From a virus: a DNA stretch of 64,000 bases. This document shows, in pieces, positions 30,483-61,469 of this stretch. The position numbers and the translations under genes are program-made. Positions within the stretch are counted from its first letter, which is position 1. The number at the start of each line of letters is the position of its first letter. Location of the stretch: IMG/VR virus record IMGVR_UViG_3300029305_003442; one strand, given 5' to 3'. The notes beneath the pieces were generated by a model. It was given only the letters and a program-made list of their open reading frames with translations. It searched no databases and was not told the origin of the DNA.

Positions 30483-30511
30483 ATTATAACATAAATTTGT
30501 GAGAAAATCAA
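30483..30511 (-). promoter_or_regulatory. Consensus sigma-A promoter for LytTR regulator gene (member of repeated promoter family)
   Basis: Minus strand TTGATT-17-TATAAT (fwd aatcaa 30506-30511 ... attata 30483-30488). Confidence 0.5.
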
Positions 30512-30759
30512 ATTTTTTTGTGTAAAAAGTGTAAAAAATTTTAATTTTTGAGTATTTGATTTTTAAATTTACTTTTTGACATTCGGATTTTAAAAATAAA
30601 ATTGTAATTTTGAAAAATTGAATAAAAATTGTAAGGATGAAAAATCAGACAAAAAATGTGTGAGTGTTTCTTGTTTAAAAATCTGAAACAATTTTTATAT
30701 AGTAATGGAAGGGTAAGAGAAAAATAAAAAAAATGAATAAATACCTTGGAGGTGAATAT

Positions 30760-31236
30760 ATGAATTATCAATATAATCAGTAGCAGGTGAGTCCACCGCA
30801 GAATTAGACGACTCAGCAGTATTCTTACCAACGACAAGTTCCTTATACTTCTGGAACTTGGAATGCGAGAGTCAGACCGGTTTCTTCAATTGAAGAAGTA
30901 AGAGCATCTTCAATTGATTTTGATGGCTCAATTTTTTATTTCCCAGATGTTGCTAATAAAAAAATCTATACTAAATTTATTAATTTAGATGGCTCTGTGG
31001 CAATTAATGTATATGAGTTAAAAGAAATGCCAACAGGTTAGGCAGCAGATTCATCTTACATTACAAGAGAAGAATTTGAAAACGTAATTATGTAGTTAAA
31101 AATGATGTATAATAATTCTTCTGCGCCTTCTACTCCAATAGAAGAATAGCAATAGGTATAGTAGTAGATGAATAGTAATTAGTTTGCGGCACCACCCGCA
31201 CAATAGCAACATAATGTTTCGCCATTACAATTTTAA
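30760..31236 (+). CDS. Gln-rich protein (158 aa, 11 TAG codons clustered in poly-Q tracts)
   Basis: GGAGGTG SD; ATG 30760; frame 1 verified to TAA 31234-31236; GAA-TAG-CAA-TAG-GTA-TAG-TAG-TAG-ATG and CAA-TAG-CAA runs. Confidence 0.55.
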
Positions 31237-31249
31237 GGAGGTATGAAGA

Positions 31250-31495
31250 ATGGCACAAGTTGATCCGAGACAATTAATAGCTATGATTAGAAATGGTCAA
31301 AATCCTCAACAACTTATGTTAAGTGTTTTAGAGACGATGCAAGATACTCCTTTTGGAGCCAATTTATTGAATCTCGCTCGCAATGGTTAGACTGCGGAGA
31401 TTGAAAAAATTGCTCGGAATATCACATCTCAAAGAGGTATGGATTATGATAAAGAGTTTAATGCCTTTAAACAATAGTTTTTTGGCTTTAAATAA
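31250..31495 (+). CDS. Small hypothetical protein (81 aa, 2 TAG)
   Basis: GGAGGT SD; ATG 31250; TAA 31493-31495. Confidence 0.45.
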
Positions 31496-31532
31496 ATAAA
31501 ATATTTTTTTTAATTAAAGGAGGGTTTCTTTT

Positions 31533-32327
31533 ATGTTTAATTCTAATGGTTACAGTTTGGCAGATATCGTTGCCGCAACAGGTGGCGGTAGAGAGAATTG
31601 CGGCGGCTTCGGCGGCTGGGGCGGAGATGGATGGTGGATTATCCTCTTATTCTTGCTCTGGGGTAACAACGGCTGGGGCGGCAATCAAGGTGGACGTGGA
31701 ACAGTTCGTGAAGAAATTGCTTATGGTTTTGATATGAACGGTTTAGAAAATAGCGTCCGTGGTGTTCAGCAAGGTATTTGTGATGGTTTCTATGCCATGA
31801 ATACTGGTATGTTAAATGGATTTAGTAACATTCAAAATACTCTATGTCAAGGTTTCTCTGGTATCAATCAAGGTACAGCTCAGTAGACATTTGATTTATC
31901 TACTCAGTTACATGGTATGGCAGCTGATAATGCGGCTTGTTGCTGCGAAACTCAGCGCGCTATTGAAAGAGGATTTGCTGAAACCAACTATAACATGGCA
32001 ACTCAAGCTTGCGATACTCGTAGAGCAATTGCTGATAGCACTCGTGATATTATTGACAGTAATAACGCAGGTGTTCGTTCTATTTTAGATTTCTTAACTC
32101 AGGATAAGATTGCTACTCTTACCGCAGAAAATCAGAGTCTAAAATTCGCAGCTTCTCAGGCAGCTCAGAACGCTTTCATTGCAGCTAATCAGGAAGCTCA
32201 AACCGCAGAACTTATTCGCAGACTTGATACCCCATGTCCTATTCCCGCTTATGTAGTTCCTAATCCTAATTGTTGCTATCCATCTTATGGATATGGGTAT
32301 GGCAACACTGGATGCTGCGGTGGTTAA
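31533..32327 (+). CDS. Gly/Trp-rich membrane protein with Cys-rich C-terminus (264 aa; GGFGGWGGDGWWIILLFLLWGNNGWGG ... CCYPSYGYGYGNTGCCGG); GC-rich codon usage
   Basis: AAAGGAGGG SD; track ORFs 31533-31886 and 31917-32327 same frame joined by one TAG. Confidence 0.55.
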
Positions 32328-32352
32328 TTAACAAAGGAGGTAAAAAATCTGT

Positions 32353-32772
32353 ATGGAAATTATTGCTAATGCTTTATAGACAGTTCCAGCAAATCAGACT
32401 GTTTATTTCACAGATACCGCCGTATGCGGTGGCCCATCTATGACTCATAGAGCTGGTAGTGGTTTAATTACTCTTAGAGGAATTACTAATCAATGTAGAG
32501 CAAGATTCCGCATCACTTTTGGAGCAAATATTGCTGTTCCAACAGGAGAAACAGTTGGACCAATTTCATTGGCTATTGCGATAGAGGGTGAACCTCTTCA
32601 AGCTACTATAATGATTGAAACACCAGCGGCTGTTGAAGAGTTCTCAAATGTTTCAAGAACTACCTTTATTGATGTTCCTCGTGGATGTTGTGTAAGTGTA
32701 AGTGTAAGAAATGTAAGTGATATTCCAGTAAATGTACAAAACGCAAACTTAATTGTTGAACGTGTTGCTTAA
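32353..32772 (+). CDS. C1q/TNF-like jelly-roll protein resembling BclA C-terminal / spore-appendage (DUF3992-like) domains (139 aa, 1 TAG)
   Basis: AAAGGAGG SD; ATG 32353 in frame with track ORF 32440-32772; alternating beta-strand pattern, CC pair near C-terminus (PRGCCVSVSVRNVS). Confidence 0.45.
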
Positions 32773-32790
32773 TGAAAGGAGGTCTTATAA

Positions 32791-33438
32791 ATGGAGAAAA
32801 GATTAGAACATATGAAAGAATCTTTAATGGCTTGCGTTGAAAGTCAATTAACTCATTTAGATACAGTTGATACTAAAGAATTAGGTGAAGCCATTGATAT
32901 GATTAAAGACCTTGAAGAAGCAATCTATTATTGTACTATTACAAAAGCAATGAAGGAACAGGATAAAGGAGAAAAAGAATCTCATAAATATTATCCAGTA
33001 ATGTATAATAGAGATATGGATAGAGATATGGGAAAAATGTATTATGAAAACCCAAATTATATGGGTGGTAATGATACAAAACGTCAATATTCATCTGGAA
33101 ATGGAGGAGGCAACTCCTCCTCCATGAGTAATTCTTCTGGAAGCGGAGGAGGTAATTCATCCTCTGGAAATACTGGTTCAAAACAATATAGTGAAACAGA
33201 ATATAATTTAATGCGCGACCAGCGTGAAGGACGTAGTCCTCAGTCGCGCCGCATGTATATGGAATCAAAAGAAATGCATTCAGATAAAGCAACTCAAATG
33301 CGTGAATTAGAAACTTATATGCAAGAGTTAACTCAAGATGTAGTTGAAATGGTTGAAGGTGCAACTGTTGAAGAAAAGCAGTATTTAAGTAAACGAGTAG
33401 CAGCTCTTGCAAACAAATTGGCTCAATTAAATGATTAA
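32791..33438 (+). CDS. Hypothetical protein (215 aa) with central Gly/Ser/Asn-rich linker; no TAG
   Basis: AAAGGAGG SD; track ORF. Confidence 0.5.
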   Translation: MEKRLEHMKESLMACVESQLTHLDTVDTKELGEAIDMIKDLEEAIYYCTITKAMKEQDKGEKESHKYYPVMYNRDMDRDMGKMYYENPNYMGGNDTKRQYSSGNGGGNSSSMSNSSGSGGGNSSSGNTGSKQYSETEYNLMRDQREGRSPQSRRMYMESKEMHSDKATQMRELETYMQELTQDVVEMVEGATVEEKQYLSKRVAALANKLAQLND

Positions 33439-33694
33439 CATTAATGGTGAACAATGGAGAGTGTTTTTAACCTCTCCATTTCACCCTGCTTTAAAACGCA
33501 GTGATGGTGCTTATACTCTAGGATGCTGTGATGATGTAACAAAAACAATTTATATAAGTAATGATGTAAGTGATAAATATTTAAAAAAAGTTTTATGCCA
33601 CGAACTCACTCACGCCGCAATGTTTAGCTACAACGTAGATTTGACTTATGAGCAAGAGGAAGTTCTCGCTGATATTATAGCAACATATGGATAG
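33431..33694 (+). CDS. Small HExxH metallopeptidase-like protein (87 aa; HELTHA), ImmA/IrrE- or SprT-like
   Basis: Track ORF; overlaps upstream stop; CHELTHAAMF motif. Confidence 0.45.
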   Translation: MININGEQWRVFLTSPFHPALKRSDGAYTLGCCDDVTKTIYISNDVSDKYLKKVLCHELTHAAMFSYNVDLTYEQEEVLADIIATYG

Positions 33695-33763
33695 GAAATT
33701 ATTCATATGGCAAATCTTCTCTTTAAGAGGTTAAAAGATGAAAGAGAAGAAGAAAGAAAAAAT

Positions 33764-33800
33764 GGGAGTATCTAATAATTTAGATACTCCCATTTTTTTT
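33764..33800 (+). terminator. Rho-independent terminator ending the + strand island
   Basis: GGGAGTATCTA-ataatt-TAGATACTCCC followed by TTTTTTTT. Confidence 0.6.
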
Positions 33801-33801
33801 G

Positions 33802-34239: not shown

Positions 34240-34305
34240 TATAACAAATCCCCTTTCTTAAAATTTTTTCTCACACTATATCAATTTTAAGTAAGGGGAT
34301 TTTAT

Positions 34306-35997: not shown

Positions 35998-36396
35998 TTA
36001 TCCTCCATATGAAACCATTAAACCTTCACAATCAAATAAGCACATACATAAATTTTCATCTTCATTTGTCCGCACCCAAATTTCAATTGTATCAGAAGCT
36101 TCCATATAATCAACAGTAATAATCTTACCAATATCTAAAGCGCAAGTAAGAACTGCTTTTCCTTTATTTTCAAAATCCGATTCGTTTGCTTTTGGATAGA
36201 AAATAGTATAATAAGAAATTTCTTTACATAAAAGCATTAAATTTGAATAATTTTTCATTTTATCATTAATTAATTCAATATAAGGGTCTATATTATCTGC
36301 TATTGGAAGCTATGAAACAATAGATTTATTTAAATCATATAGATTCATAGAAATATTTCCATAATCTTTAGATTCTTTTTTTAAATTACACTTCAT
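35998..36396 (-). CDS. Hypothetical protein (132 aa, 1 TAG at 36310-36312)
   Basis: ATG 36396 with AAAGGAGA SD; in frame with track ORF 35998-36258. Confidence 0.45.
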
Positions 36397-36426: not shown

Positions 36427-36455
36427 ATTATATCATATTTTTTTATTTTTGTCAA
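36427..36455 (-). promoter_or_regulatory. Perfect consensus promoter TTGACA-17-TATAAT on minus strand (overlaps nrdG stop)
   Basis: fwd tgtcaa 36450-36455, attata 36427-36432. Confidence 0.55.
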
Positions 36456-36915
36456 GATAAATAATACGTTGATTGCGGCTTCCTCTCATAGGAAGTGTAA
36501 TGTCTCTTTCAGCTTCAATATAAGGTCCATCAATTAAACAAGTAATTAATTCTAAAATTTCTTTTATATTTGGATTATGAGGTAAATCATCGTAAGTATA
36601 CCCTGTCCATAAATAAATTTCTGTATCTGGTAATTTTTCTTTAACAGTTTTTATTACCAATAAAGTCAAAAAAGTATTTTCAGGACATAAAGGTTCTCCA
36701 CCCAAAATACTTAAAGAACGCTTAATACCATTAGCTTGAAGAGCTTCAATTATTTCATTAATTACATCAGTAGTAAATTCTAGTCCTCCGTCATAATCCC
36801 AAGTTTCGGGATTATGACAGCCAAGACAATGATGCGGACATCCTTGAGTATAGAAAGAAACTGATACACCAGTTGCCGCAGAAAAATCATTTTTAATTAA
36901 ACCTGCATATCGCAT
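36433..36915 (-). CDS. nrdG: Anaerobic ribonucleotide reductase activating protein (radical SAM)
   Basis: GCPHHCLGCHNPETW CxxxCxxC motif; 160 aa. Confidence 0.8.
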   Translation of the reverse strand: MRYAGLIKNDFSAATGVSVSFYTQGCPHHCLGCHNPETWDYDGGLEFTTDVINEIIEALQANGIKRSLSILGGEPLCPENTFLTLLVIKTVKEKLPDTEIYLWTGYTYDDLPHNPNIKEILELITCLIDGPYIEAERDITLPMRGSRNQRIIYLDKNKKI

Positions 36916-40466: not shown

Positions 40467-40692
40467 TTATGTCAATAGCCTCATCTTCATATTCATATTT
40501 TAATTGATTAGGTAATTCATTACGATAAAAAGTATATTTCCTTTTACAGGTAGGACAAAAATAAACATACTGTTCAGGATAAGTACATAAAACTTTACCA
40601 GTACTTTTTATTTCTTCATTACAATCTTCACAATAAAAGCTATCTATATAGATAGCTTTTACATATCGTCTTTTAATTTTCATCTTCTTCAA
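40453..40692 (-). CDS. Small zinc-ribbon protein (79 aa)
   Basis: CEDC...CPTC pairs. Confidence 0.4.
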   Translation of the reverse strand: MKKMKIKRRYVKAIYIDSFYCEDCNEEIKSTGKVLCTYPEQYVYFCPTCKRKYTFYRNELPNQLKYEYEDEAIDINEEV

Positions 40693-43180
40693 TTCCTCCT
40701 TGATAACGTTCCGAAGTTAATTTTAAATCAGTTTTATTTACAATTTCTTCAATTTTATACAACTGATGACCTGGCGTACTATTGTATTTTTTAACAATAA
40801 AATTATCTCCAGAACGAATACCCATAACCGCAATCATATTACCACGATTAAACCAAGATTTTTCTACAATCTTTTTAGTTCCATCAGGATTTTTGATAGA
40901 AATTTGTTTATCAAATAAAGAAAAATATTCTTTTCTAAATTTAACTTCTACAACTCCATGAGTTGTTAATAACGTTACTGTGCTTTTAACCTTATTTTTT
41001 GCTATACAGGTTCCGCAAATTTTATGAAGTTTAAACATATGAATTTCTTTTCCTCCACGAGCAAACACTTGGTCTACTATTGGTTCTTCTGGCAAAGCAA
41101 AGAAATCAACAAATCCATATTTATTATGATTTACATCAATTAATTCATGTTCGTGATAATAAAAACATAAAACTTCCATCTCCCAAGCAGAAATTGTACC
41201 TGAAGCATATTTCTCCCAATCTTCAAGAAAAACAGCATCATTTATTTTTACTAAGATTTCATCTTTATTTTCATTAATCCATGTTCTAAAAATATCCATC
41301 CAATTTTGATAAATTTTTTCCCATTGCTTAATATTCATAAAGAAAATTGTATCTTTTGTTATAATCAAATTATCACAATGTACTTCAATAAGAAAATTAA
41401 TAGCTCTTTCATCTAATTTATATAATTCATTATTAAATTTACAAATTGCTTTTAAATAACGATTAAATTCATATACTCTTCTTGCTAAAATTTGTTCTTC
41501 AGTTTCAGATGGAAGTAGATTATATTTAATTAATCCACCCATATTTTGTAGAGTAATTCTTTTTTTTCTATCGCAAGTTTCCCAAATATACCAAGCCATA
41601 CAAGTTTTACGTTCCATCATATCATCAAAAGCTCCACCCTTAATCAATGAAATCATAGCTTGCTTGCCTGGATTTACTTTATTCAAAAAATCTCGCGGAG
41701 ATACATAAGGTCTATGTTCAATGATAGATGCTACGACATCATCACCAACATTTAATAATCCTTTTAAACCAAAAAGAATTCTATTGTTCTCAGCATCTGG
41801 CGCAAAGCCATATTTAGATTTATTAATATTTGCTAAACTAACTTTAATACCAGCAGCTTGAATATCACCAATAGCTTTCGCAATTTTACCATAATCAGTA
41901 CTTGCGCCAGCTTCTTCATCAGTTGCGCCACTATTAACAATTAAACAAGCTGTATTCCAATAGATAGGATTAAATTTAGTTGCCAATAAAATTGTTTGAA
42001 TACCAACAAATGAATAAGGTAATGAATGATTTAAACTAAAAGCATATCCAAGTTGTGGAGCGACCGCAACTTCCCAGACATAATCTGCTATATTAGAATT
42101 TCCAATTTTTTCATACACTTGCGCTTTTAATTCCGGAATTTTTGACATCTGTTTTTTTGCTACTATTTTACGAGCAGCGTTTGCTTCACCTAAAGTAAAA
42201 TTAGCAACCTCCATCAAAATTTCCATCATTTGCTCTTGGATAGGACAGCAACCATAATATTTATCACAATGTTTATGCATTAACTCAATCATTTTTTCAG
42301 GCAAATGATTAAATTTCATTTCTTTATCAAAAATATTAATTCCTGATTTTTGAATGCGAGCATATCTATCTTGCTGACTTTCTTTACCTTTTTCAGACAT
42401 AAGTCTCATCATAGCATTTGCGGCAGTCATCTCTAAAGGATTTTGTGGTTTAAGTTTTTTCGCAATTGCTAATCCAACACCACCACTAAACTGAAATACA
42501 TCCAATATATCACCTGCGGCTAAATGATTCCAAATATAATTTTCAGATGTGTCAATTATTTCTGGATGAATATATTTATTATAAGTTTCTCTTAAACCAA
42601 TATTTTCAATTAAATTATCCTCATGTAACATTTCAAAACATTTAATAATTTTATCAGAAACTTCAGTTACAAGAAAATCATATTTAGTATCACCTGCTGC
42701 TTCCGCCGCATGTAAGTCAAAACAAGTAATTAAATCTCCATTTGGTGCTCTCATAAAAGATGCTGTATCAAATGGATTTTTATCATAAAGAATTACACCA
42801 GAAGCATGAATGCCACGTTTATTTACTAATCCCTCTATTGAAATGATAATATCAACCAATCCAGGATATTGATTAACTTCTTTTATAAAAGTTGTAACTG
42901 GTTTTCTATCTTTTTCTTCATCACCATATAATACTTCTGAAATAGACCATAAAAATCCACGTTCTTGAGGAATTAATGATGACATATATTGCGCTACATC
43001 TACATCTATTCCTTCTGGATATTCTTCACTTCTATAACCACGACAAGCTGTAAGAACAGCTGATTTAGTTCCTTCAGTTCCAAAAGTTGCTACCTGAACC
43101 AAACCAAATTCTCCACGTTCTTTACGAATTGCTTCAAAAATCGCTGGTCTTTTACTTGGAGCCAGGTCTATATCAATATC
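40673..43180 (-). CDS. dnaE: DNA polymerase III alpha (DnaE-type) exon 2 (835 aa; polymerase core), begins DIDIDLAPSKR...
   Basis: Reading frame of track ORF 40673-43102 is open upstream to 43180, where DIDID follows the exon-1 motif RFLNKERAELP; RGIHASGVIL palm motif; no TAG. Confidence 0.75.
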   Translation of the reverse strand, partial: DIDIDLAPSKRPAIFEAIRKERGEFGLVQVATFGTEGTKSAVLTACRGYRSEEYPEGIDVDVAQYMSSLIPQERGFLWSISEVLYGDEEKDRKPVTTFIKEVNQYPGLVDIIISIEGLVNKRGIHASGVILYDKNPFDTASFMRAPNGDLITCFDLHAAEAAGDTKYDFLVTEVSDKIIKCFEMLHEDNLIENIGLRETYNKYIHPEIIDTSENYIWNHLAAGDILDVFQFSGGVGLAIAKKLKPQNPLEMTAANAMMRLMSEKGKESQQDRYARIQKSGINIFDKEMKFNHLPEKMIELMHKHCDKYYGCCPIQEQMMEILMEVANFTLGEANAARKIVAKKQMSKIPELKAQVYEKIGNSNIADYVWEVAVAPQLGYAFSLNHSLPYSFVGIQTILLATKFNPIYWNTACLIVNSGATDEEAGASTDYGKIAKAIGDIQAAGIKVSLANINKSKYGFAPDAENNRILFGLKGLLNVGDDVVASIIEHRPYVSPRDFLNKVNPGKQAMISLIKGGAFDDMMERKTCMAWYIWETCDRKKRITLQNMGGLIKYNLLPSETEEQILARRVYEFNRYLKAICKFNNELYKLDERAINFLIEVHCDNLIITKDTIFFMNIKQWEKIYQNWMDIFRTWINENKDEILVKINDAVFLEDWEKYASGTISAWEMEVLCFYYHEHELIDVNHNKYGFVDFFALPEEPIVDQVFARGGKEIHMFKLHKICGTCIAKNKVKSTVTLLTTHGVVEVKFRKEYFSLFDKQISIKNPDGTKKIVEKSWFNRGNMIAVMGIRSGDNFIVKKYNSTPGHQLYKIEEIVNKTDLKLTSERYQGGIEEDEN

Positions 43181-44362
43181 CGTTTATTGGACTATATTTT
43201 TCATAATGACTTACTAAGAGCATTTTACTTCAGTCATTACTAGAACATCTTTCAGACGGTGCTTATCTCCGCCTTACATAAATAGTCTCTACACATTTAA
43301 TCTTATTTTTCTATTTGTTTCCAATAATAGCCTTTATATAAAGTTCCATTTTTAATCGCTTTATCTAATTGAGTGTGTCCTTTCATTCCTAAGAATTGTA
43401 AGACTGCGGTTTTAGCATTAAATATTTGAATTAAATTGTAATTTTCATCATACATTTCAATTCGTTTTCCATTTAATGCTTGATTACCACTTTTACCATA
43501 CATACCATTTTTTTCGCCAGCGGTTTTACCTTTACTATTTACAGACATTTTCTACTTAGACTCTTCTGTATGTTTTTTACCATACATTCCATTATTAGAA
43601 CCTTTTGTTTTTTCACTCATTTTTTGTTTAAACTCTTCAGTTCTATAAGGAGAGTTGTCTCTTTCAAATTCTGCCCAATAAGATAAAAATGCTTTAGTTT
43701 TTTCACTATGGTATTTTCCATACATTCCATTATTCTTACCACGATTTACTTCACTTAATTTTCGGCACAAAACTTCTTTTTCTTCTGGTGTATATCCTGC
43801 GGTAGTGTTTCCTCCACAACCGCCCTCATGAATATTATAAAACAATGGATTTGATGTGGCATTATATAAGGCAATAAATTGTTTTTCTTTTTCACTATTT
43901 TCTAAATCATTTTTAGAAACAAATAAAATGGACTTTGTAAAACAGTCTTTTCCATATTTGGCAATTTCTTTTTTCAATTCTTTTCCGCTGCCTAAATATG
44001 AATCATCTAATTCTCCATAATGTTTTCCGATATATTTCATACCATTTATATTATTAGTAGTTAAATAAATATAATGTTGTTTCATTTAAACAACCCCCTT
44101 TCATATATATTTAACTTTTAGAATTAGACAATGACCTGACTTTGTCCAAGATTTTTAGCACGGTATTCCCAATCTAACCTTTTTTAGGTCATAGGGTCTC
44201 TTAGTCAGTTGATTCGCATTTATATAACATAAATCTTATTTCGCTGATACCGTTAGCCTGCGGTTACTCGTCTCGCCGGTCGGATGACCGGGCCGCCGCA
44301 GACACCCATTAAGCAATGGTTAATGTTCTTTTTTTACAACTGCCCAATATCAATATTAGACT
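43181..44362 (-). ncRNA. Group I self-splicing intron (about 1182 nt) in dnaE, carrying a homing-endonuclease ORF
   Basis: 5' exon ends ...GAACUGCCU (44363); intron-internal guide GGGCAGUU (44345-44338) pairs with AACUGCCU giving U.G at the splice site; intron ends with G (43181) before exon-2 GAUAUUGAU; GC-rich structured segment 44150-44330 and 43200-43300 flanks the ORF. Confidence 0.65.
43303..44085 (-). CDS. Intron-encoded GIY-YIG homing endonuclease with NUMOD3-like repeats and C-terminal DNA-binding region; in-frame TAG at 43552-43554
   Basis: YIYLTTNNINGMKYIGKH GIY-YIG motif; repeated NNGMYGK(K/Y)H; track ORFs 43552-44085 and 43303-43548 are in the same frame separated by TAG + one codon. 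Confidence 0.7.
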
Positions 44363-45770: not shown

Positions 45771-45799
45771 ATTATACCATATTTTATATGAAAAATCAA
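45771..45799 (-). promoter_or_regulatory. Promoter-family member upstream of dnaE (TTGATT-17-TATAAT)
   Basis: fwd aatcaa 45794-45799, attata 45771-45776. Confidence 0.5.
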
Positions 45800-47420: not shown

Positions 47421-47776
47421 AAGTTAAACTCCTTTATAAAATTTTCGTACCATTTATCAATTTGCTCAAAAATTTCTAAATCACTTTTTTCTTTTGGTTT
47501 CTCGGTCTCAGCTTCCAACACCGGCCGGAGCAATTTTTCCTCCATTAAATAGACAGTATTCATTATATGGTCATATGTAAGCAATTTATTTTCAGTATCA
47601 TTAATCCTAGCATCTAAATTTCTCACCTAATCTTCTATTGTGTCTATACGACCGTAACGACCAAGTGCTTTAACTATATCTGTAACTTCATATAATGAAA
47701 TTCTATATTTATCTTCAAATTGATTTTCAAACCATGTGAAATTATCTTCACCAAGCTTTATTTGAGTTTGTATCAT
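47417..47776 (-). CDS. Hypothetical protein (119 aa, 1 TAG)
   Basis: ATG 47776; in frame with track ORF 47417-47626. Confidence 0.4.
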
Positions 47777-47815: not shown

Positions 47816-47844
47816 ATTATATCATATTTTTTTATAAAAATCAA
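47816..47844 (-). promoter_or_regulatory. Promoter-family member (TTGATT-17-TATAAT)
   Basis: fwd aatcaa 47839-47844, attata 47816-47821. Confidence 0.5.
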
Positions 47845-47846
47845 AA

Positions 47847-47869
47847 AGGGAAGATTTTATTCTTCCCTT
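47847..47869 (-). terminator. Hairpin terminator immediately upstream of promoter
   Basis: AAGGGAAGA-ttttat-TCTTCCCTT, T-run on minus strand. Confidence 0.4.
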
Positions 47870-52074: not shown

Positions 52075-53616
52075 TTATTCATTATATTCAAAAGCTGATT
52101 CTTCATCTAATTTAATTTTGATATCTTTCATATCTATTAATTCATAATCATATGAAGTACAAAACATAGGTTGAATTCTACAACAACCCAAATCTGCTTT
52201 ACACCATAAATAAACACCTTTATAACGTCCTCGTCTATTTTTATAAACAGACAATTTAATTGTGGGTTTATCAAAAACATTAGTTGCTAAAATTGTTTCT
52301 AAAGCTTGAATATCTTCTTCTTTTACATTTAATAAAATCGCACCCACGTCAATTTTATCGGCAATTGCTTTAGCACCTCTCAGTAATGTTTGGTCTGGAG
52401 TTTTTGATTCGGCAAAATCACCATTTAACTGCGTTGCTGACATAATAAACACTCCATATTGATTACAAATATCTTTTAATCGTGTAGATAACATAAATAA
52501 AATATTATCTTCACGCAATTTAATACCGCCACTTCTTCGCGTTATTTCTTCAAGAATTTTTAAACTTGTATGAATATAGTCATGAAAAATATAATATACA
52601 TCATGGTCACGAATATTTCTTTTAATTGTATTTTCTACATCTTTTAAAGAAAAATCTGGCAATTCTTCTACATAAAGTGGAGCATTAGATAAGATTTTAG
52701 CTGCTTCTAAAACCCTTTCTTCTTCATTACCATCATATTGACCATTTAAAATATGCTCTTCATTAACATTAGATATAAAAGCTAACATCATAGTTTGAAC
52801 TTCTTCAAGTTCCTGTTCTGTTGTAATGAACAATACTGGTCTATTAACACCACAACTAATCCATCCAAAAGATTCATCATAAATTTTATTACAAGCAATA
52901 TAACAAGCATCAGCTATCATACTTCTTGTTTTTCCAACACCTGTAGCTGCTGAACGCAAATAAAATTTTTTTAATCTTGCTCCACGAGTAACTGTATTAA
53001 TCAATGGTCCATATAATGGAACACCAACTTCTGGATGTTGTTTAAATTTATCAATCAATTCAAAAATTCCATCGGCGGCTTGACTGGCTTCTCCATCACT
53101 ATCATCCACATATTGAAGTCTAATATTATCAATTTTTTTATCAACTTGGTCAGCAATCTCTTCAAGATTTACATTATCCAACCAATCTTCTTGAATTTGT
53201 TTCTTTTTTACATCAAGAATATTATTTGGGTCATATAAATCAGAAATATCAATGCCGCAATTATCATAAGCTCTTAAAAGAGTGAACTTTTTTAATCTAT
53301 TATAATAATAATCAAATGTTGAACTCATACAAGTTTCAGCAGCTTTTAAAATCCACTCTTCACCTTTTTGTTGTTTATATATTGCCGCACTTTTTGGTCT
53401 ATTGGATAGAAAATCTGATATATTTTCTAATGTAATTTTTTTTGCTCCCAATTCATAAATTTTATAAATTGCTCCAAAAATTATACGATGGAATTCATCT
53501 GGAAAATCTTCATCTGTAATAATATATTTATCAGTAAAATCTAAAATTTGCGGTGTATTATATACACATCCAATTACTTGAATAATTGCTTGTATATCTA
53601 CATATTGTGATGCCAT
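52075..53616 (-). CDS. DnaB-family replicative helicase
   Basis: N-terminal DnaB-like helical domain; ATGVGKT Walker A; 513 aa; no TAG. Confidence 0.7.
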   Translation of the reverse strand: MASQYVDIQAIIQVIGCVYNTPQILDFTDKYIITDEDFPDEFHRIIFGAIYKIYELGAKKITLENISDFLSNRPKSAAIYKQQKGEEWILKAAETCMSSTFDYYYNRLKKFTLLRAYDNCGIDISDLYDPNNILDVKKKQIQEDWLDNVNLEEIADQVDKKIDNIRLQYVDDSDGEASQAADGIFELIDKFKQHPEVGVPLYGPLINTVTRGARLKKFYLRSAATGVGKTRSMIADACYIACNKIYDESFGWISCGVNRPVLFITTEQELEEVQTMMLAFISNVNEEHILNGQYDGNEEERVLEAAKILSNAPLYVEELPDFSLKDVENTIKRNIRDHDVYYIFHDYIHTSLKILEEITRRSGGIKLREDNILFMLSTRLKDICNQYGVFIMSATQLNGDFAESKTPDQTLLRGAKAIADKIDVGAILLNVKEEDIQALETILATNVFDKPTIKLSVYKNRRGRYKGVYLWCKADLGCCRIQPMFCTSYDYELIDMKDIKIKLDEESAFEYNE

Positions 53617-53630
53617 TAAACATCATCCTC

Positions 53631-54146
53631 CTATTCTTCATCCAAAAACGTAAATAATTTTCTTTTTGGCTTAATTTTTCGTTTTGGAATTGGAATAATT
53701 ATTTCTTGTACTTCCGGCACATATTCTTTAATTACTTTATTTTCATTTTTTTGTTTAGCTTCCCATAAGCTATAATAATAATTAAAAGCATTTTGATACA
53801 CATATGGAACTATACCTATACCACCATTTGCTTTTTCAATATCACCATTTTTAACTTCATAATGATAAACTAATGCTTTTTGAATTCCAGAATATGTATA
53901 TTTATAATTATTTATATATTCATTAATTTGTTTACGAATACGAGCATCCACATATGAAATATTAAATAATTTCATAATATAATTTTCTAAATCATTTTTT
54001 TCTTTTTCAAGTTGTTCTTGTTCTTTTTGCTTTAAATCAAAACAATTTTTATGAGCATACCGACGAGAACTAGTATTTATATATTGTTCTGTATTAGCAT
54101 CAAATTGCTAACCGCAAATAGAACATTTTACTAAATGTTTAGCCAT
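53631..54146 (-). CDS. Hypothetical protein (171 aa, N-terminal CSICG zinc motif, 1 TAG at 54108-54110)
   Basis: ATG 54146 with GAAAGGAG SD; in frame with track ORF 53631-53975. Confidence 0.4.
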
Positions 54147-54181: not shown

Positions 54182-54210
54182 ATTATACCATATTTTTATA
54201 TAAAAATCAA
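54182..54210 (-). promoter_or_regulatory. Promoter-family member (TTGATT-17-TATAAT)
   Basis: fwd aatcaa 54205-54210, attata 54182-54187. Confidence 0.5.
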
Positions 54211-54236
54211 GGCAAGATTTTTCAACCTTGCCTTTT
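54209..54236 (-). terminator. Hairpin terminator directly upstream of promoter
   Basis: AAGGCAAG-atttttcaac-CTTGCCTT. Confidence 0.35.
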
Positions 54237-56217: not shown

Positions 56218-56583
56218 TTAATTAATTTCAATATTTTTTCCATTTTCAGTTAAAGAATAAATTGTGGGGTCTTGACCTACTTTTTCTACAAAGCCATCTG
56301 TTACAAGTTTTCTCATAGCTCCTGAAACTGTTTTTGAAGAAATAAAAAGTCCTTCTCCAATATCCTTTGCTTTCCAATTTTCAGTATCAAGATTATCTTT
56401 CATATACTGAAGAACAAGTTTACCATTGTCTGTAAACATTGGCTTCTCAGTTACCTCAATATTTTTAAATACTTTCCAATAAGCCAATGCTTCTTCGTTC
56501 ATTGGAGTAGGATATGCTTCAATTGCCATTTCAACATACTTAATAAATTCTGCTTTTTTAGACATTTTAAAACTCACTTTCAA
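56218..56583 (-). CDS. Hypothetical winged-helix-like protein (121 aa)
   Basis: Track ORF. Confidence 0.4.
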   Translation of the reverse strand: MKVSFKMSKKAEFIKYVEMAIEAYPTPMNEEALAYWKVFKNIEVTEKPMFTDNGKLVLQYMKDNLDTENWKAKDIGEGLFISSKTVSGAMRKLVTDGFVEKVGQDPTIYSLTENGKNIEIN

Positions 56584-56609: not shown

Positions 56610-56638
56610 ATTATATCATATTTTTTTATAAAAATCAA
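56610..56638 (-). promoter_or_regulatory. Promoter-family member (TTGATT-17-TATAAT)
   Basis: fwd aatcaa 56633-56638, attata 56610-56615. Confidence 0.5.
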
Positions 56639-57463: not shown

Positions 57464-57465
57464 TG

Positions 57466-57768: not shown

Positions 57769-57769
57769 A

Positions 57770-58759: not shown

Positions 58760-58814
58760 ATTTTAGAAAAATTAAGGGATAGATGTTTAGTCTATCCCTA
58801 TATTTATATTATAA

Positions 58815-59084
58815 TTATTCTGCTTCCTCAGCATCAGGGTCAAAACTCATACCTGCAGGAGTAAGGGACAAGAACTTAACTGCCTTGTGAGTACCATCAT
58901 CCAACTCAATTTCAGCAGGAGTACGAAGACCAAGACCCTTTCTCTGGATAGCAGAGGTAAAAATGCCATCTACCTAACGCTTTTCAATACCAAGTGCCTC
59001 TGCAACATCAGCAGCAGTAACATTAGCACCATTAACTTCCTTCAAATAATTAAGAACCTTCTTAGAATTTTCCTTCATAGCCAT
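58815..59084 (-). CDS. Hypothetical protein (89 aa, 1 TAG), GC-richer
   Basis: AGGAGA SD; ATG 59084; verified to TAA 58815-58817. Confidence 0.4.
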
Positions 59085-59161
59085 AATAGTAAAATCTCCT
59101 TTAAATTATAAATATTTTTTTAATTTTAAATTTTTTAATTAAGCTTTTTGCTTATGTAAAT

Positions 59162-59190
59162 ATTATACCAAAAAATTTTTTAAATGTCAA
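59162..59190 (-). promoter_or_regulatory. Perfect consensus promoter TTGACA-17-TATAAT (minus)
   Basis: fwd tgtcaa 59185-59190, attata 59162-59167. Confidence 0.5.
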
Positions 59191-59383
59191 ATTTTTTTGA
59201 CGATAAAATCTCTTGAACCATTTCATCAATAATGGTCATATCTTCAAGTTTATCTACATGACTTGATAGATTAAAAATTTCTGCTTCTGCTTTTTTTACT
59301 TTTTGTGGGTCATTACTATTTTGAATAATCCATTCAGCTTTAGCAATTTTATTTGCGAGATTTTTACGTTCTTTATTTTTCAT
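59180..59383 (-). CDS. Small hypothetical protein (67 aa)
   Basis: Track ORF; GGAAGAA SD. Confidence 0.4.
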   Translation of the reverse strand: MKNKERKNLANKIAKAEWIIQNSNDPQKVKKAEAEIFNLSSHVDKLEDMTIIDEMVQEILSSKKFDI

Positions 59384-59414
59384 AAAATTTTCTTCCTTAA
59401 TCTTTACTATATAT

Positions 59415-59443
59415 ATTATATCATAAATTTTTTAAAAAGTCAA
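59415..59443 (-). promoter_or_regulatory. Promoter-family member (TTGACT-17-TATAAT)
   Basis: fwd agtcaa 59438-59443, attata 59415-59420. Confidence 0.5.
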
Positions 59444-59454
59444 AAAATTTTGAT

Positions 59455-61407
59455 TTATTTTAAAAAATTTTTTTCAAATTCTTCTTCCGTAATAATCGGA
59501 ATACCAAGCTTTTGAGCAGATTGATTTTTTCCAGTAGTAGAAGCAATATCATTATTAATTAAATAACTTGTATTTTTGCTTACACTATCCATTACTTTTC
59601 CGCCCATATTTTCAATAATTAATTTTAAATCATCACGTTTTTTATAATTATTTAATTTACCAGTAATAACAAACTTTAATCCATCGCAAGTTTTTTCAAT
59701 TTCTTCATTAATTATAGTATTTTGAATTGGAGGACAAATATATTTTTCATATATTTCATCTGCTTCACTATAATCAAAATTCCAAATAGCTAAAGTTTTT
59801 GATTCCGCAAAACCATCTAATTTAGAAAAATCAAATTTTTCATTTATCATATTCCTAAAGTTTAAATAAGTAGAACATTTCTCTATTAAAATTTTAGCTA
59901 CAGAATTTCCAATAAGAGGAATACCAAGAGCAGATATAAAAGAAACATCATCACATATCTTAGCTTCTTCAATCGCATTTAAGATTTTATCCACAGAAGC
60001 GATTCCAAAACCTGGTTTTTCAATCCATTCATCTCTATAATCTTTTAATGTAAAAATATCTTTTATATTTTCAATCCAATTCCAATCAATTAATTTTTCT
60101 AAAGTAGCTTTAGACAAACCTTTAATATTTAAACCTTTTTTTGAACAAAAATGGTCTAATTTATTAAGAAATTTACCTTCACAATTAAGATTATTACATA
60201 CTAATACAGTGGAACAATTTTCTGTAACTGTAATAGTTTCTCCACCACAAATAGGACATTGTCTTGGAATATCAATAATTAAATCTTGAATATAACAATT
60301 ATCACTTTTTTCTGCTCGTTCAATTTGAGGAATAATCATATTTCTTTTAGAAACCCAAATTTTTTGATATACTTGCGGCATATCACCTAAAGTTTCTTTA
60401 AGAATACTAAGATTATGAAGATTTGCTCTTTCCACCATTGTACCATCAATTTCTACTGGATTAAATACTGCTACTGGTGTTAATACTCCTGTACGACCCA
60501 TTGTATATTCAATATTTAATAATGAGGTTTCATATTCTTCATCATAGAATTTAAATGCCATAGCATTTTTAAAATGGTGGTCAGTAGCTCCTAAACTTTT
60601 TCCATATTCAATATCATTAAATTTAAAAACTATTCCATCAATAGGATAATTTAAATGATGTGCGGCTTCAATAATTTCATCATCAATTGTTTCCCAATTG
60701 AAATCATTGTCATATCTATAAGGAACAATAGAAAAATTTAAAAAAGATAATTTTTTTAATTTTTCTGATAATAATTTAATATCATTAAAACCTTCAATAA
60801 CATCCCAAGCAATAAAACATAAATTACGTTTAGCACATTCTTTGGAATCAAGTAATCTAATACTACCTGCCGCAAAATTACGAGGATTTTTATACATTGT
60901 TTTAAATAATTCATTAAAAGTATCAAGAGGGCAAATAATTTCTCCATCAACAATTAACTCATCTTTATAATCAATATATTTAGGGATATTATCAACAACC
61001 CAAGCATTATGAGTTATATCTTCTCCCTCAACTCCATTACCACGAGTTTCTGCGGAAACCAATTTACCATTTAAATATCGTAATGAACAAGTTAAACCAT
61101 CCATCTTAAACATACATAAATAATTTTTATTTTGTTTAAGAAAATTTTTAATTACATTAATATCTTTAGTCTTATCAAGTGAAAGCATTAAATGATTATG
61201 TTTAACTTTTTTTAATTCATTTATTACATTATAAACGATTTTTTGTGTGGGTGAATCATCATAAATAATTCCAGTCTTTTCTTCTAAATGAATTAATTCA
61301 AAAAACTTATCATCATATTCTTTATCAGAAATAGTTGGATGACCTTCATCATATTCTTTTGTTCTGGCATTTAAATAATCAATCAATTCTCTGATAATTA
61401 ATTCCAT
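59455..61407 (-). CDS. ligA: NAD-dependent DNA ligase
   Basis: 650 aa; adenylation KMDG motif (CMFKMDGLT), OB/Zn/HhH and C-terminal BRCT-like region; no TAG. Confidence 0.8.
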   Translation of the reverse strand: MELIIRELIDYLNARTKEYDEGHPTISDKEYDDKFFELIHLEEKTGIIYDDSPTQKIVYNVINELKKVKHNHLMLSLDKTKDINVIKNFLKQNKNYLCMFKMDGLTCSLRYLNGKLVSAETRGNGVEGEDITHNAWVVDNIPKYIDYKDELIVDGEIICPLDTFNELFKTMYKNPRNFAAGSIRLLDSKECAKRNLCFIAWDVIEGFNDIKLLSEKLKKLSFLNFSIVPYRYDNDFNWETIDDEIIEAAHHLNYPIDGIVFKFNDIEYGKSLGATDHHFKNAMAFKFYDEEYETSLLNIEYTMGRTGVLTPVAVFNPVEIDGTMVERANLHNLSILKETLGDMPQVYQKIWVSKRNMIIPQIERAEKSDNCYIQDLIIDIPRQCPICGGETITVTENCSTVLVCNNLNCEGKFLNKLDHFCSKKGLNIKGLSKATLEKLIDWNWIENIKDIFTLKDYRDEWIEKPGFGIASVDKILNAIEEAKICDDVSFISALGIPLIGNSVAKILIEKCSTYLNFRNMINEKFDFSKLDGFAESKTLAIWNFDYSEADEIYEKYICPPIQNTIINEEIEKTCDGLKFVITGKLNNYKKRDDLKLIIENMGGKVMDSVSKNTSYLINNDIASTTGKNQSAQKLGIPIITEEEFEKNFLK

Positions 61408-61440
61408 AATAAAATCCTTTATGATTTATTTTCTATATAT

Positions 61441-61469
61441 ATTATATAATATTTTTTTAAAAATATCAA
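61441..61469 (-). promoter_or_regulatory. Promoter-family member (TTGATA-17-TATAAT) upstream of ligA
   Basis: fwd tatcaa 61464-61469, attata 61441-61446. Confidence 0.45.

What the first reader, a model, noticed from the sequence alone, without database searches (positions are those of the whole stretch)
30483..61469. Family of at least nine near-identical promoters on the minus strand with conserved extended sequence
The motif TTGAYWTTTATAAAAAAATATGATATAATAT recurs at 30483-30511, 36427-36455, 45771-45799, 47816-47844, 54182-54210, 56610-56638, 59162-59190, 59415-59443 and 61441-61469. The reading is -35 TTGACA/TTGATT, exactly 17 nt, -10 TATAAT, and each copy is 25-60 nt upstream of an SD-ATG. 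Conservation beyond the hexamers (A/T tract in the spacer, ATATGATATAAT) is more than sigma-A recognition requires. It may mark a phage early-promoter class with an additional factor or UP-like element.
Basis: seen in the sequence. Interest (0 to 1): 0.6.

Follow-up and report, generated by a model that had tools for sequence, protein, structure and literature searches.

The report
Repeated strong host-type phage promoters
The repeated motif is a real family of ten near-perfect host-type promoters that head the DNA-replication genes of an uncultivated gut or rumen phage. It is an ordinary kind of element, but it is shared almost unchanged by many related uncultivated phages.

Summary
All nine cited minus-strand sites exist, and there is a tenth on the plus strand (23247-23275). 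All ten have TTGA at -35, a spacer of exactly 17 nt and a perfect TATAAT. Nine have TG at -15/-14. A matrix built only from other contigs scores these ten at 24.5-48 bits and nothing else above 12; the best score in randomised sequence was 9.6.

The window comes from an SPbeta/Enterococcus-EF1-like siphophage that reads TAG as a sense codon. The nine minus-strand copies head its replication and nucleotide-metabolism genes. Each lies 30-44 nt (one 77 nt) upstream of a ribosome-binding site and start codon. Three abut a terminator hairpin whose U-tract is the -35 plus the T-rich spacer.

Every conserved block beyond the hexamers matches an element already described for Firmicutes housekeeping promoters: TRTG, A/T tracts in the spacer, an AT-rich discriminator, a Y-R start and a purine-rich leader. 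There is no UP-like conservation, and no extra factor is needed.

The same cassette occurs in at least 111 IMG/VR stretches (27-49% GC) and in 74 stretches of metagenome bins. There it also drives tRNA arrays, including amber-suppressor tRNAs.

Verdict: a new member of a known kind, namely strong early phage promoters with a PeSL-like terminator-promoter layout. Interest is moderate to low.

The parts
61441..61469 (-). Promoter copy (TTGATA-17-TATAAT, no TG). The predicted transcription start is 61434. It heads the NAD-dependent DNA ligase gene 59455-61407.
   Evidence: Matrix score 39.1 bits. Start codon 33 nt after the -10. Ligase domains.
61470..61497 (-). Terminator hairpin (12 bp) abutting the -35 of the 61441 copy. 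Its U-rich tail is TTGATATTT.
   Evidence: Folding energy -16.5 kcal/mol, z = -4.9.
59415..59443 (-). Promoter copy (TTGACT-17-TATGATATAAT). The predicted start is 59408. It heads the 67-aa gene 59180-59383.
   Evidence: 38.2 bits. Start codon 31 nt after the -10.
59162..59190 (-). Promoter copy (TTGACA-17-TTTGGTATAAT). The predicted start is 59155. After a 77-nt leader it heads the 89-aa gene 58815-59084, which has one in-frame TAG.
   Evidence: 35.9 bits..
58775..58799 (-). Bidirectional terminator-like hairpin that closes the unit started at 59162.
   Evidence: Folding energy -12.5 kcal/mol, z = -3.8.
56610..56638 (-). Promoter copy with an exact consensus (TTGATTTTTATAAAAAAATATGATATAAT). 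The predicted start is 56603. It heads the 115-aa gene 56218-56565, which has only sub-threshold winged-helix (TrmB/MarR-like) Pfam matches.
   Evidence: 48.0 bits.. A promoter is kept at the orthologous position in 11 of 11 relatives.
54182..54210 (-). Promoter copy. The predicted start is 54175. It heads the YorH-like zinc-ribbon gene 53616-54146, which has in-frame TAGs at codons 13 and 172.
   Evidence: 44.4 bits.. Pfam Phage_SPbeta_YorH on the ENA gene call.
54209..54234 (-). Terminator hairpin (11 bp) whose last pairs overlap the first TT of the -35. Its U-tract is TTGATTTTT.
   Evidence: Folding energy -15.1 kcal/mol, z = -5.3. Relatives keep a hairpin of different sequence at this position.
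47816..47844 (-). Promoter copy with an exact consensus. The predicted start is 47809. It heads the 119-aa gene 47417-47776, followed by the SF1 helicase gene 45994-47184.
   Evidence: 45.6 bits..
47846..47869 (-). Terminator hairpin (9 bp) directly upstream of the 47816 copy. Its U-tract is TTTGATTTTT.
   Evidence: Folding energy -12.3 kcal/mol, z = -2.7.
45771..45799 (-). Promoter copy. The predicted start is 45764. It heads the PHP/N-terminal part of DNA polymerase III alpha, 44309-45733.
   Evidence: 36.1 bits..
36427..36455 (-). Promoter copy (TTGACA-17-TATGATATAAT). It overlaps the last codons of the NrdG-like gene 36433-36915. The predicted start is 36420. It heads the 132-aa gene 35998-36396.
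   Evidence: 36.1 bits..
30483..30511 (-). The most divergent minus-strand copy (C and G in the spacer). The predicted start is 30476. It heads gene 29743-30447, which has a sub-threshold match to the response-regulator receiver domain. A direct repeat, TTTTTACAC twice, sits just upstream of the -35.
   Evidence: 27.6 bits..
23247..23275 (+). Tenth copy, on the plus strand and not in the finding. The predicted start is 23282. It heads the 101-aa gene 23310-23615 and, downstream, a cluster that includes a radical-SAM enzyme and an aldo-keto reductase with 4Fe-4S domains.
   Evidence: 24.5 bits..
33755..33800 (.). Bidirectional terminator-like hairpin (about 20 bp) where the minus-strand unit started at 36427 meets the plus-strand TAG-rich genes 30760-33775.
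   Evidence: Gene map.
29695..29728 (.). Bidirectional terminator-like hairpin (14 bp) where the plus-strand late operon meets the minus-strand unit started at 30483.
   Evidence: Folding energy -25.6 kcal/mol, z = -6.2.

Best explanation
The ten sites are promoters read by the host's housekeeping sigma-A RNA polymerase, with every optional promoter element set near its optimum.

Anatomy of a copy:
- -35 TTGA(C/T)(A/T).
- A 17-nt spacer that is almost purely A/T: T-rich next to the -35, an A-tract at about -24 to -18, then TRTG at -17 to -14.
- A perfect -10 TATAAT.
- A 5-6 nt A/T discriminator.
- A pyrimidine-purine start 7 nt after the -10.
- A purine-rich leader of about 30-40 nt ending in a strong ribosome-binding site.

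These form standard expression cassettes spaced 0.25-9 kb apart along the replication and nucleotide-metabolism module of an SPbeta/EF1-like phage that reads TAG as a sense codon. In three window copies (and across relatives at the orthologous YorH site) an intrinsic terminator hairpin ends at the -35. The T-run of the promoter then doubles as the terminator's U-tract, so one unit is closed and the next opened within about 60 nt.

Shown here: the anatomy, the statistics, the positions relative to genes, purifying selection at an orthologous site, and the wide distribution in related and other uncultivated phages.

Inferred: recognition by host sigma-A, early timing, the exact start sites, and that the spacer and leader are conserved because they maximise strength.
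For: Family and chance:
- Exactly ten sites at 24.5-48 bits, using a matrix trained on other contigs. The null maximum is 9.6.
- 9 matches to TTGA-N16-TGnTATAAT against 0.11 expected.

Geometry:
- Spacer of 17 nt in 10/10, TATAAT in 10/10, TG in 9/10, TRTG in 8/10.
- All are co-oriented with the next gene. The start codon lies 30-44 nt downstream (77 nt for one copy) and is preceded by GGAG-type ribosome-binding sites.

Placement:
- Nine sites lie in 33.5 kb encoding NrdD/NrdG, guanylate kinase, split Pol III alpha, SF1 helicase, RecJ, DnaB, YorF/G/H-like proteins, ligase and GyrA.
- One site lies in about 30 kb of tail and structural genes.
- TAG codon density is 0.2% on the minus strand and 1.3% on the plus strand.

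Lineage:
- The gene order matches SPbeta yorF-yorL and Enterococcus phage VRE9_3.
- VRE9_3 has ten analogous TTGA(C/A/T)-17(TG)-TA(T/A)AAT sites in its replication module, all on the gene strand.

Selection:
- At the orthologous promoter of gene 56218-56565 in 11 relatives, mean pairwise identity is 0.81 in the promoter and 0.70 in the next 12 nt.
- It is 0.46 upstream, 0.44 in the rest of the leader, 0.64 at codon positions 1+2 and 0.43 at position 3.

Match to known host-promoter elements (PMC12641261):
- TRTG is common in Firmicutes.
- The spacer is described as T-rich AT-tract, low-signal region, second AT-tract, then the Ex region.
- The discriminator is AT/AG-rich in Terrabacteria, the start is Y-R, and the initial transcribed region is AG-rich in Firmicutes.
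- 9 of 10 window copies have Y-R at positions 6-7 after the -10 (read).

Terminators: three hairpins of -12 to -16.5 kcal/mol abut the -35.
Against: - There are no transcription-start or timing data for this phage or its relatives.
- The host is unknown. It is inferred only from bin labels (59 of 74 Bacillota-lineage), promoter and ribosome-binding-site style, and cultured relatives.
- Spacer conservation is stronger than in the cultured relative VRE9_3, whose spacers contain C and G and vary more.
- The A/T-only spacer persists in contigs of 42-49% GC. Contig L017 also carries a second sigma-A-like class with GC-rich spacers. So an A/T-only spacer does not appear to be needed for a sigma-A-type promoter, and some extra constraint may exist.
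- Five promoter-proximal genes contain in-frame TAG codons, so not everything behind these promoters is translatable before suppression.
- The exact degenerate 31-mer was found in no isolate genome, so it is not simply a copy of a known host promoter.
Confidence: 0.75

Rival explanations
1. The conserved spacer and the sequence just after the -10 form the binding site of an additional trans-acting protein. This could be a phage-encoded repressor or activator that switches early transcription, for example one of the small proteins with weak winged-helix matches encoded right behind copies 56610 and 59162. It could also be a host factor. Sigma-A polymerase still does the transcribing.
For: - The free spacer positions carry about 6 bits and the 16 nt after the -10 about 6-8 bits, even in 380 sites not selected on those positions.
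- The A/T-only spacer is kept in 42-49% GC contigs.
- The spacer is less conserved in the cultured relative VRE9_3.
- One contig has two sigma-A-like classes.
- TTTTTATAAAAA is a perfect palindrome.
- Genes with weak winged-helix matches (56218-56565 TrmB/MarR-like; 58815-59084 z-alpha, all below Pfam cut-offs) sit directly behind two copies.
Against: - The T-to-A switch point in the spacer shifts by up to about 4 nt between copies (T5ATA7, T7ATA5, T6A8). That fits a compositional or structural constraint better than a protein bound in fixed register.
- Every conserved block has a published counterpart in host promoters.
- No protein family was shown to co-occur with the motif. The winged-helix-like gene was detected only in close relatives.
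Confidence: 0.15
2. The copies are PeSL-like mobile regulatory cassettes. Their similarity is maintained mainly by recombination between copies and between co-infecting phages, and their main evolutionary role is to shuffle gene modules.
For: - The layout is the same as published PeSLs: a stem-loop just upstream of a near-consensus early promoter, followed by a ribosome-binding site and ATG (PMC4122927).
- Homology breakpoints between loci at least 88% identical lie within -60 to +100 nt of a promoter in 27 of 132 cases, against 10% expected.
- In L082 a 255-aa gene is inserted about 36 nt after the -10 of the YorH promoter.
- Promoters within a genome group differ at 9.73 of 33 free positions, against 11.32 between groups.
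Against: - The promoter is kept at the same orthologous position in 11 of 11 relatives, which points to stable inheritance rather than movement.
- Within-genome homogenisation is small (about 14%) and is inflated by orthologous copies grouped together. An unweighted test showed none.
- The breakpoint enrichment is only two-fold. It is not corrected for shared events or for the general preference of indels for intergenic DNA.
- The L082 event looks like a homing-endonuclease-type insertion.
- Only 3 of 10 window copies have the hairpin.
Confidence: 0.15
3. The motif is read by a phage-encoded sigma factor or a phage RNA polymerase, not by the host sigma-A holoenzyme.
For: - The degenerate 31-mer was found only in viral contigs and metagenome bins, and in no isolate genome.
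- Relatives such as SPbeta encode their own polymerase, YonO.
Against: - The motif is the textbook bipartite sigma-70/sigma-A consensus with a 17-nt spacer and TRTG.
- No sigma or polymerase gene was seen among the window proteins scanned.
- In SPbeta, YonO transcribes the late structural and lysis genes from one start site, whereas this motif sits in the replication module.
- A phage must have some promoters usable by unmodified host polymerase at entry unless it injects a polymerase.
Confidence: 0.05
4. These are chance look-alikes in a 28% GC genome with no function.
For: Generic -35/-10 look-alikes are not enriched in the region: 110 found against 117.6 in shuffles, and 122 against 129.6.
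Against: The specific class is far beyond chance. It is always co-oriented with and upstream of genes. It is conserved at an orthologous position above the level of neighbouring coding sequence.
Confidence: 0.01

Closest known systems
Sigma-A (sigma-70 family) extended -10 promoters of Firmicutes, with the '-16 region' TRTG motif
   Same: - -35 TTGACA-like, a 17-nt spacer, TRTGnTATAAT, an AT-rich discriminator, a Y-R start and an AG-rich initial transcribed region.
- The spacer shows a T-rich tract next to the -35 and a second A/T tract before the TG, as described for host promoters in PMC12641261.
   Different: - Here all elements are near-optimal at once.
- The spacer is almost purely A/T, even in 42-49% GC phage contigs.
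- There is no conserved UP-like region. A terminator often takes that place.
PeSL (promoter-early stem-loop) composite terminator/promoter cassettes of T4-like myoviruses (Arbiol 2010, PMC2839356; Comeau 2014, PMC4122927)
   Same: - A stem-loop directly upstream of a near-consensus housekeeping early promoter, followed by a ribosome-binding site and start codon.
- Many copies per genome, in non-structural regions.
   Different: - A different phage lineage (SPbeta/EF1-like siphophage of presumed Firmicutes hosts).
- Only about a quarter to a third of copies carry the hairpin.
- Copies sit between conserved core replication genes and are positionally stable across relatives.
- Evidence for cassette-mediated shuffling is weak.
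Strong early promoter families of lytic phages, such as the T5 early promoters and SPO1 early promoters (recalled from my own knowledge, not checked here)
   Same: - Multiple near-consensus host-polymerase promoters.
- A/T-rich spacer and conserved initially transcribed sequence, thought to out-compete host promoters at the start of infection.
   Different: No sequence homology is claimed, and the timing here is inferred rather than measured.
Promoters in the replication module of Enterococcus phage VRE9_3 (EF1-like; cultured relative)
   Same: - Ten TTGA(C/A/T)-17(TG)-TA(T/A)AAT sites on the gene strand in a syntenic 25-kb module.
- A similar sequence after the -10 (TATAAT-taattataaagttaaa, against TATAAT-atttatagaaagttaag in several uncultivated relatives).
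   Different: The VRE9_3 spacers are T-rich, contain C and G, and are much less uniform. They lack the central A-tract.

Membership tests
Sigma-A/sigma-70 housekeeping promoter with extended -10 | A -35 hexamer close to TTGACA. | tested here: met
   TTGA is invariant in 10/10. The hexamers are TTGACA (3), TTGACT (1), TTGATT (5) and TTGATA (1).
Sigma-A/sigma-70 housekeeping promoter with extended -10 | A spacer of 17 +/- 1 nt and a -10 hexamer TATAAT. | tested here: met
   The spacer is exactly 17 nt and TATAAT is perfect in 10/10.
Sigma-A/sigma-70 housekeeping promoter with extended -10 | TG at -15/-14 (TRTG in Firmicutes). | tested here: met
   TG in 9/10 (61441 has TT). TRTG in 8/10 (59162 has TTTG). 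The motif definition is from PMC12641261.
Sigma-A/sigma-70 housekeeping promoter with extended -10 | Transcripts start about 7 nt downstream of the -10 and depend on the sigma-A holoenzyme. | not testable with these tools
   No transcript data are available. Indirect evidence only: Y-R at positions 6-7 after the -10 in 9/10 copies, and start codons 30-77 nt downstream.
UP element (alpha-CTD site upstream of the -35) | Conserved alternating A- and T-tracts at about -40 to -60. | tested here: not met
   The 20 nt upstream of the -35 carry about 1 bit in 380 sites. The ten window copies have no conserved columns there. The space is often a GC-rich hairpin. Copies without a hairpin are merely more A/T-rich there (0.72 against 0.58).
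PeSL composite terminator/promoter cassette | A stem-loop immediately upstream of the early promoter, followed by a ribosome-binding site and ATG. | tested here: inconclusive
   Present in 3 of 10 window copies and in 162 of 582 sites overall. A loose criterion scored 106 of 582 at random positions. The ribosome-binding site and ATG are present in all window copies.
PeSL composite terminator/promoter cassette | Copies flank indels or gene replacements between close relatives (recombination hot spots). | tested here: inconclusive
   27 of 132 breakpoints lie near a promoter, against 10% expected, but events are not independent. The orthologous promoter is positionally stable in 11/11 relatives.
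PeSL composite terminator/promoter cassette | Occurs in T4-like myoviruses (the lineage in which it was defined). | tested here: not met
   The window is syntenic with SPbeta and with Enterococcus phage VRE9_3, recorded only as Caudoviricetes.
Single-subunit phage RNA polymerase promoter (T7-like) | One contiguous conserved block of about 20 nt spanning the start site, with no -35/-10 bipartite structure, plus a phage polymerase gene. | tested here: not met
   The motif is bipartite with the sigma-70 consensus. No polymerase domain was found among the window proteins scanned.

The most novel reading that the evidence does not exclude
The roughly 45-nt cassette may be more than an optimal host promoter. 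It could be the defining signal of one 'early regulon' shared by a very large group of uncultivated gut and rumen Firmicutes phages that read TAG as a sense codon. This regulon would include the amber-suppressor tRNA genes that launch the code switch. The A/T-only spacer and start region, kept even in 42-49% GC genomes, would be read by an as yet unknown phage or host factor that times the early-to-late switch and therefore the switch to the alternative code.
Probability: 0.15. Interest if true: 0.6.

Novelty: new member of a known kind. Interest (0 to 1): 0.35.

Why it matters
For this window, the family gives a usable transcription map of the replication module of an uncultivated phage that reads TAG as a sense codon. 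The map comprises ten predicted starts, three terminator-promoter junctions and the unit boundaries.

More generally, the same cassette marks hundreds of sites in large uncultivated gut and rumen phages. There it sits directly upstream of tRNA arrays and of 9 of 15 amber-suppressor tRNA genes found in the fetched loci.

The published model of phage stop-codon recoding assumes that suppressor tRNAs are made early from genes compatible with the standard code, but the preprint version read here does not mention promoters at all (0 occurrences). If the cassette is an early host-polymerase promoter, it supplies sequence-level support for that model. It also offers a simple way to predict early genes in such phages.

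As promoter biology it is ordinary: a 'fully loaded' sigma-A promoter.

Tried and rejected
- **Nearest sequenced phage.** Megablast of 20 kb against GenBank phages gave no match. A 54-nt motif query gave no match, probably because of the low-complexity filter.
- **SPbeta.** 94 kb scanned; only one loose match, so the family is not a general SPbeta trait.
- **Non-coding RNAs.** No tRNA and no Rfam family in the window, so none of the window copies heads a known RNA.
- **Standard-code early genes.** I first thought the minus-strand genes use the standard code with TAG as stop. This was rejected. Reading through TAG joins fragments into full-length genes (dUTPase, RecJ N-terminus, Sak4-like, YorF, YorH), and no gene then ends in TAG (matched by ENA gene calls).
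- **UP-like element.** Rejected.
- **Concerted evolution.** The first test was negative and confounded by one contig with many GC-rich promoters. A restricted test showed only a small effect.
- **Hairpin association.** My loose criterion gave a high background (162 against 106 of 582). I rely on the individual hairpins and on the varied hairpin sequences kept at one position.
- **L082 gene swap.** A swap right after the promoter looked like cassette shuffling but is better read as a homing-endonuclease-type insertion.
- **Literature.** Searches on recoded phages found no description of this promoter family.

Full report

Yes. Reading the minus strand at the nine stated coordinates shows TTGAnn, exactly 17 nt, then TATAAT at every site.

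The literal 31-nt consensus in the finding is matched exactly only by 47816 and 56610, and within 3 mismatches by four sites. 'Near-identical' therefore holds for the best copies only.

The structural pattern TTGA-N16-TGnTATAAT occurs 9 times in the window, against 0.11 expected from dinucleotide-preserving shuffles. These nine are eight of the cited sites plus an uncited plus-strand copy at 23247-23275. The ninth cited site (61441) has TT in place of TG.

I then built a 45-nt weight matrix from 543 sites found in other contigs, so it is independent of the window. It scores exactly these ten sites at 24.5-48 bits. Nothing in the window scores between 12 and 24 bits, and the best score in 30 Markov-randomised windows was 9.6. 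The family is discrete and has ten members here.

Generic -35/-10 look-alikes are not enriched in this AT-rich DNA: 110 against 117.6, and 122 against 129.6. It is the specific class that stands out.

**2. What surrounds the sites?**

The window is 25-35% GC. The minus strand from about 29.7 to 64 kb encodes:
- anaerobic ribonucleotide reductase NrdD and its activase;
- guanylate kinase and dUTPase;
- a DNA polymerase III alpha gene split by a GIY-YIG endonuclease gene;
- an SF1 helicase, RecJ and DnaB;
- homologues of SPbeta YorF, YorG (Sak4-like) and YorH;
- NAD-dependent ligase and GyrA.

The gene order matches the yorF-yorL block of Bacillus phage SPbeta and the replication module of Enterococcus phage VRE9_3.

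The plus strand from 1 to 29.3 kb gives long reading frames only if TAG is read through: 9,625 aa against 2,999 aa in frames of at least 150 aa. It encodes very large tail-type proteins.

Once TAG is read through on both strands, no gene ends in TAG. Minus-strand fragments fuse into full-length genes. TAG density is 125 per 9,576 codons on the plus strand and 20 per 9,608 on the minus strand. The large replication enzymes have none. ENA gene calls for the same phage agree with the fused genes.

So this is a phage that reads TAG as a sense codon (genetic code 15), with recoding concentrated in the late genes, as described for other gut phages. The same phage is on 21 public contigs. The longest is a 99,463-bp JGI contig.

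**3. Anatomy of a copy**

All ten sites are co-oriented with the next gene. They lie in an intergenic gap or over the last codons of the preceding gene. The start codon is 30-44 nt after the -10 (77 nt for 59162) and is preceded by a GGAG-type ribosome-binding site.

Information content in the ten copies rises at the -35 and stays above background until about 12-16 nt past the -10. Upstream of the -35 there is nothing.

In 380 non-redundant sites from other contigs, selected only on TTGA, TG, TATAAT and spacing:
- the 15 free spacer positions carry about 6 bits;
- the 16 nt after the -10 carry 6-8 bits;
- the 20 nt upstream of the -35 carry about 1 bit.

There is therefore no UP-like element.

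Three window copies (47816, 54182, 61441) are directly preceded by hairpins of -12.3, -15.1 and -16.5 kcal/mol. The U-rich tail of each hairpin is the -35 plus the T-run of the spacer. At the orthologous YorH promoter, relatives keep a hairpin at the same place but with quite different stem sequences. That is what a structural terminator should do.

**4. Is the extra conservation more than sigma-A needs?**

The 'ATATGATATAAT' block is the TRTG extended -10 that is common in Firmicutes.

A recent survey of mapped start sites in 49 bacteria describes four relevant features (PMC12641261):
- a spacer made of a T-rich AT-tract next to the -35, a low-signal stretch, a second AT-tract and then the TG region, with up to 600-fold effects on strength;
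- an AT- or AG-rich discriminator in Terrabacteria;
- a 3-nt Y-R start element;
- an AG-rich initial transcribed region in Firmicutes.

The phage consensus is TTGAyT-TTTT-AT-AAAAAAA-TATGn-TATAAT-ATATA-T(A/G)-purine-rich leader. It maps onto that scheme block by block. Nine of ten window copies have Y-R at positions 6-7 after the -10 (read), which gives the predicted starts listed under parts.

The simplest reading is a host sigma-A promoter with every optional element near its optimum. That is what a lytic phage needs in order to capture host polymerase at entry.

Selection on it is strong. At the promoter of gene 56218-56565, compared across 11 relatives, mean pairwise identity is 0.81 in the promoter and 0.70 in the next 12 nt. 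It is 0.46 upstream, 0.64 at codon positions 1+2 and 0.43 at position 3.

**5. Distribution elsewhere**

There are 130 sites with full flanks on many contigs of 100-400 kb, with local GC from 27% to 49%.

The chance expectation for this pattern is far below one (my own estimate from base composition, not a tool result).

In 596 Gb of species-representative genomes it hits 74 stretches. All are in metagenome bins or uncultured assemblies from gut or rumen, and 59 of 74 carry Bacillota-lineage labels. Several lie on 130-230-kb contigs with many copies, which look like mis-binned phage. No isolate genome is hit.

Only 43 of 185 fetched loci share a detectable protein with the window. The cassette is therefore either older than, or moves beyond, the immediate family.

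SPbeta itself has essentially none. The cultured relative VRE9_3 has ten analogous sites in its replication module, but with T-rich, less uniform spacers.

In the other contigs the same promoter also drives tRNA arrays:
- 9 of 15 amber-suppressor tRNA(CUA) genes lie within 400 nt downstream of a copy;
- six of those lie behind a conserved leader containing ACAGCAA;
- ROOL RNAs lie nearby.

**6. Rival explanations**

(a) An additional factor. In favour: spacer conservation beyond that of VRE9_3, persistence in 42-49% GC contigs, and one contig (L017) with a second sigma-A-like class that has GC-rich spacers. Against: the T-to-A switch point in the spacer slides by several nucleotides between copies, no co-occurring protein was found, and every block has a host-promoter counterpart.

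(b) PeSL-like recombination cassettes. The layout is the same as published PeSLs, and homology breakpoints between close relatives are about two-fold enriched near copies (27 of 132 against 10%). However, the promoters are positionally stable, and within-genome homogenisation is slight (9.73 against 11.32 differences; none in the unweighted test).

(c) A phage sigma factor or polymerase. This is unlikely given the textbook bipartite consensus and the placement in the replication module. In SPbeta the phage polymerase YonO serves the late operon.

(d) Chance. Excluded.

**7. Comparison with what is known, and novelty**

By function and anatomy this is a sigma-A extended -10 promoter family. Its cassette layout is that of PeSLs, and its role is that of the strong early promoters of lytic phages.

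Membership as a sigma-A promoter is met on every sequence criterion. The start sites themselves could not be tested. PeSL membership fails on lineage and is inconclusive on the recombination criterion, so I call it PeSL-like, not a PeSL.

I found no description of this family in the papers on recoded gut phages that I could search.

It is a new member of a known kind. Two things go beyond routine. First, the cassette is near-invariant across many uncultivated phages with very different base composition. Second, it links replication genes and suppressor tRNA genes under one promoter type. That makes the proposed 'standard code early, alternative code late' programme directly testable.

**8. Verdict**

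Interest 0.35.

Noticed in passing
window 1-64000 (plus strand 1-29270 and 30760-33775; minus strand 29743-63878): The whole phage reads TAG as a sense codon. Plus-strand structural genes give long frames only with TAG read-through (2,999 to 9,625 aa). No gene ends in TAG once it is read through. TAG density is 1.3% of codons in late genes against 0.2% in replication genes, and zero in the large replication enzymes. There is no tRNA in the window.
   Followed up: yes
window 53616-54146, 35998-36396, 47417-47776, 58815-59084, 29743-30447 (minus strand): Five of the genes directly behind promoter copies carry an in-frame TAG (at codons 13, 29, 50, 37 and 165). Before suppression they would give truncated products even though they are transcribed from host-type promoters.
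   Followed up: partly
window 40673-45733 (minus strand): DNA polymerase III alpha is split into an N-terminal PHP part (44309-45733) and a C-terminal part (40673-43102). A GIY-YIG/NUMOD3 endonuclease gene (43303-44085) lies between them. Rfam found no group I intron at gathering score.
   Followed up: partly
window 23310-29270 (plus strand): The only plus-strand promoter copy heads a cluster inside the late region. The cluster holds a 101-aa protein without TAG, a 389-aa Ser/Thr/Cys/Asn-rich protein, a radical-SAM enzyme (24852-26210), a second 462-aa protein with a CxxxCxxC motif, and an aldo-keto reductase fused to 4Fe-4S domains (28209-29270). It may be a peptide-modification or accessory module.
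   Followed up: partly
window 30512-30760: This is a divergent intergenic region. On the minus strand, a direct repeat (TTTTTACAC twice) sits just upstream of the -35 of the weakest minus-strand copy, next to a receiver-domain gene. On the plus strand, repeated AAAATTGTAA motifs and a lone TTGACA precede the very TAG-rich genes 30760-33775, which have no family promoter.
   Followed up: no
L001 1885-2013, L006 2986-3116, L038, L091, L092, L096 and others (40 of 623 promoters in fetched loci): A conserved leader, RGRCAnnnACAGCAA, lies 17-30 nt after the -10 in a subset of promoters. 28 of these 40 are followed by a tRNA within 400 nt, and six by an amber-suppressor tRNA(CUA). No Rfam family was listed for it. 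It may be a processing or antitermination signal of tRNA operons.
   Followed up: partly
L098 1503-2100, L016 5852-6477, L021 4181-4831, L096 7982-8394, L015 6133-6245, L105 6001-6346: Motif-bearing phage contigs carry ROOL RNAs (263-338 bits), a RAGATH-33 RNA, a tmRNA and arrays of 20 or more tRNAs interspersed with the promoter copies.
   Followed up: no
L017 (IMGVR_UViG_3300031853_000306, 48% GC): This contig has a second sigma-A-like promoter class with GC-rich, non-conserved spacers and its own conserved flanks (cttaac-TTGACA-N14-TG(C/G)TATAAT-AGATACATCAAGAG). It occurs side by side with the A/T-spacer class. Three A/T-class promoters also lie in tandem about 70 nt apart.
   Followed up: no
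L082 1159-1946 compared with L099 5908-5924: Between 98%-identical phages, a 255-aa gene is inserted about 36 nt after the -10 of the YorH promoter, and the first codons of yorH are replaced. I suggest a homing endonuclease because of an EYDGEQH motif. This rests on my own recall and was not checked with a tool.
   Followed up: partly
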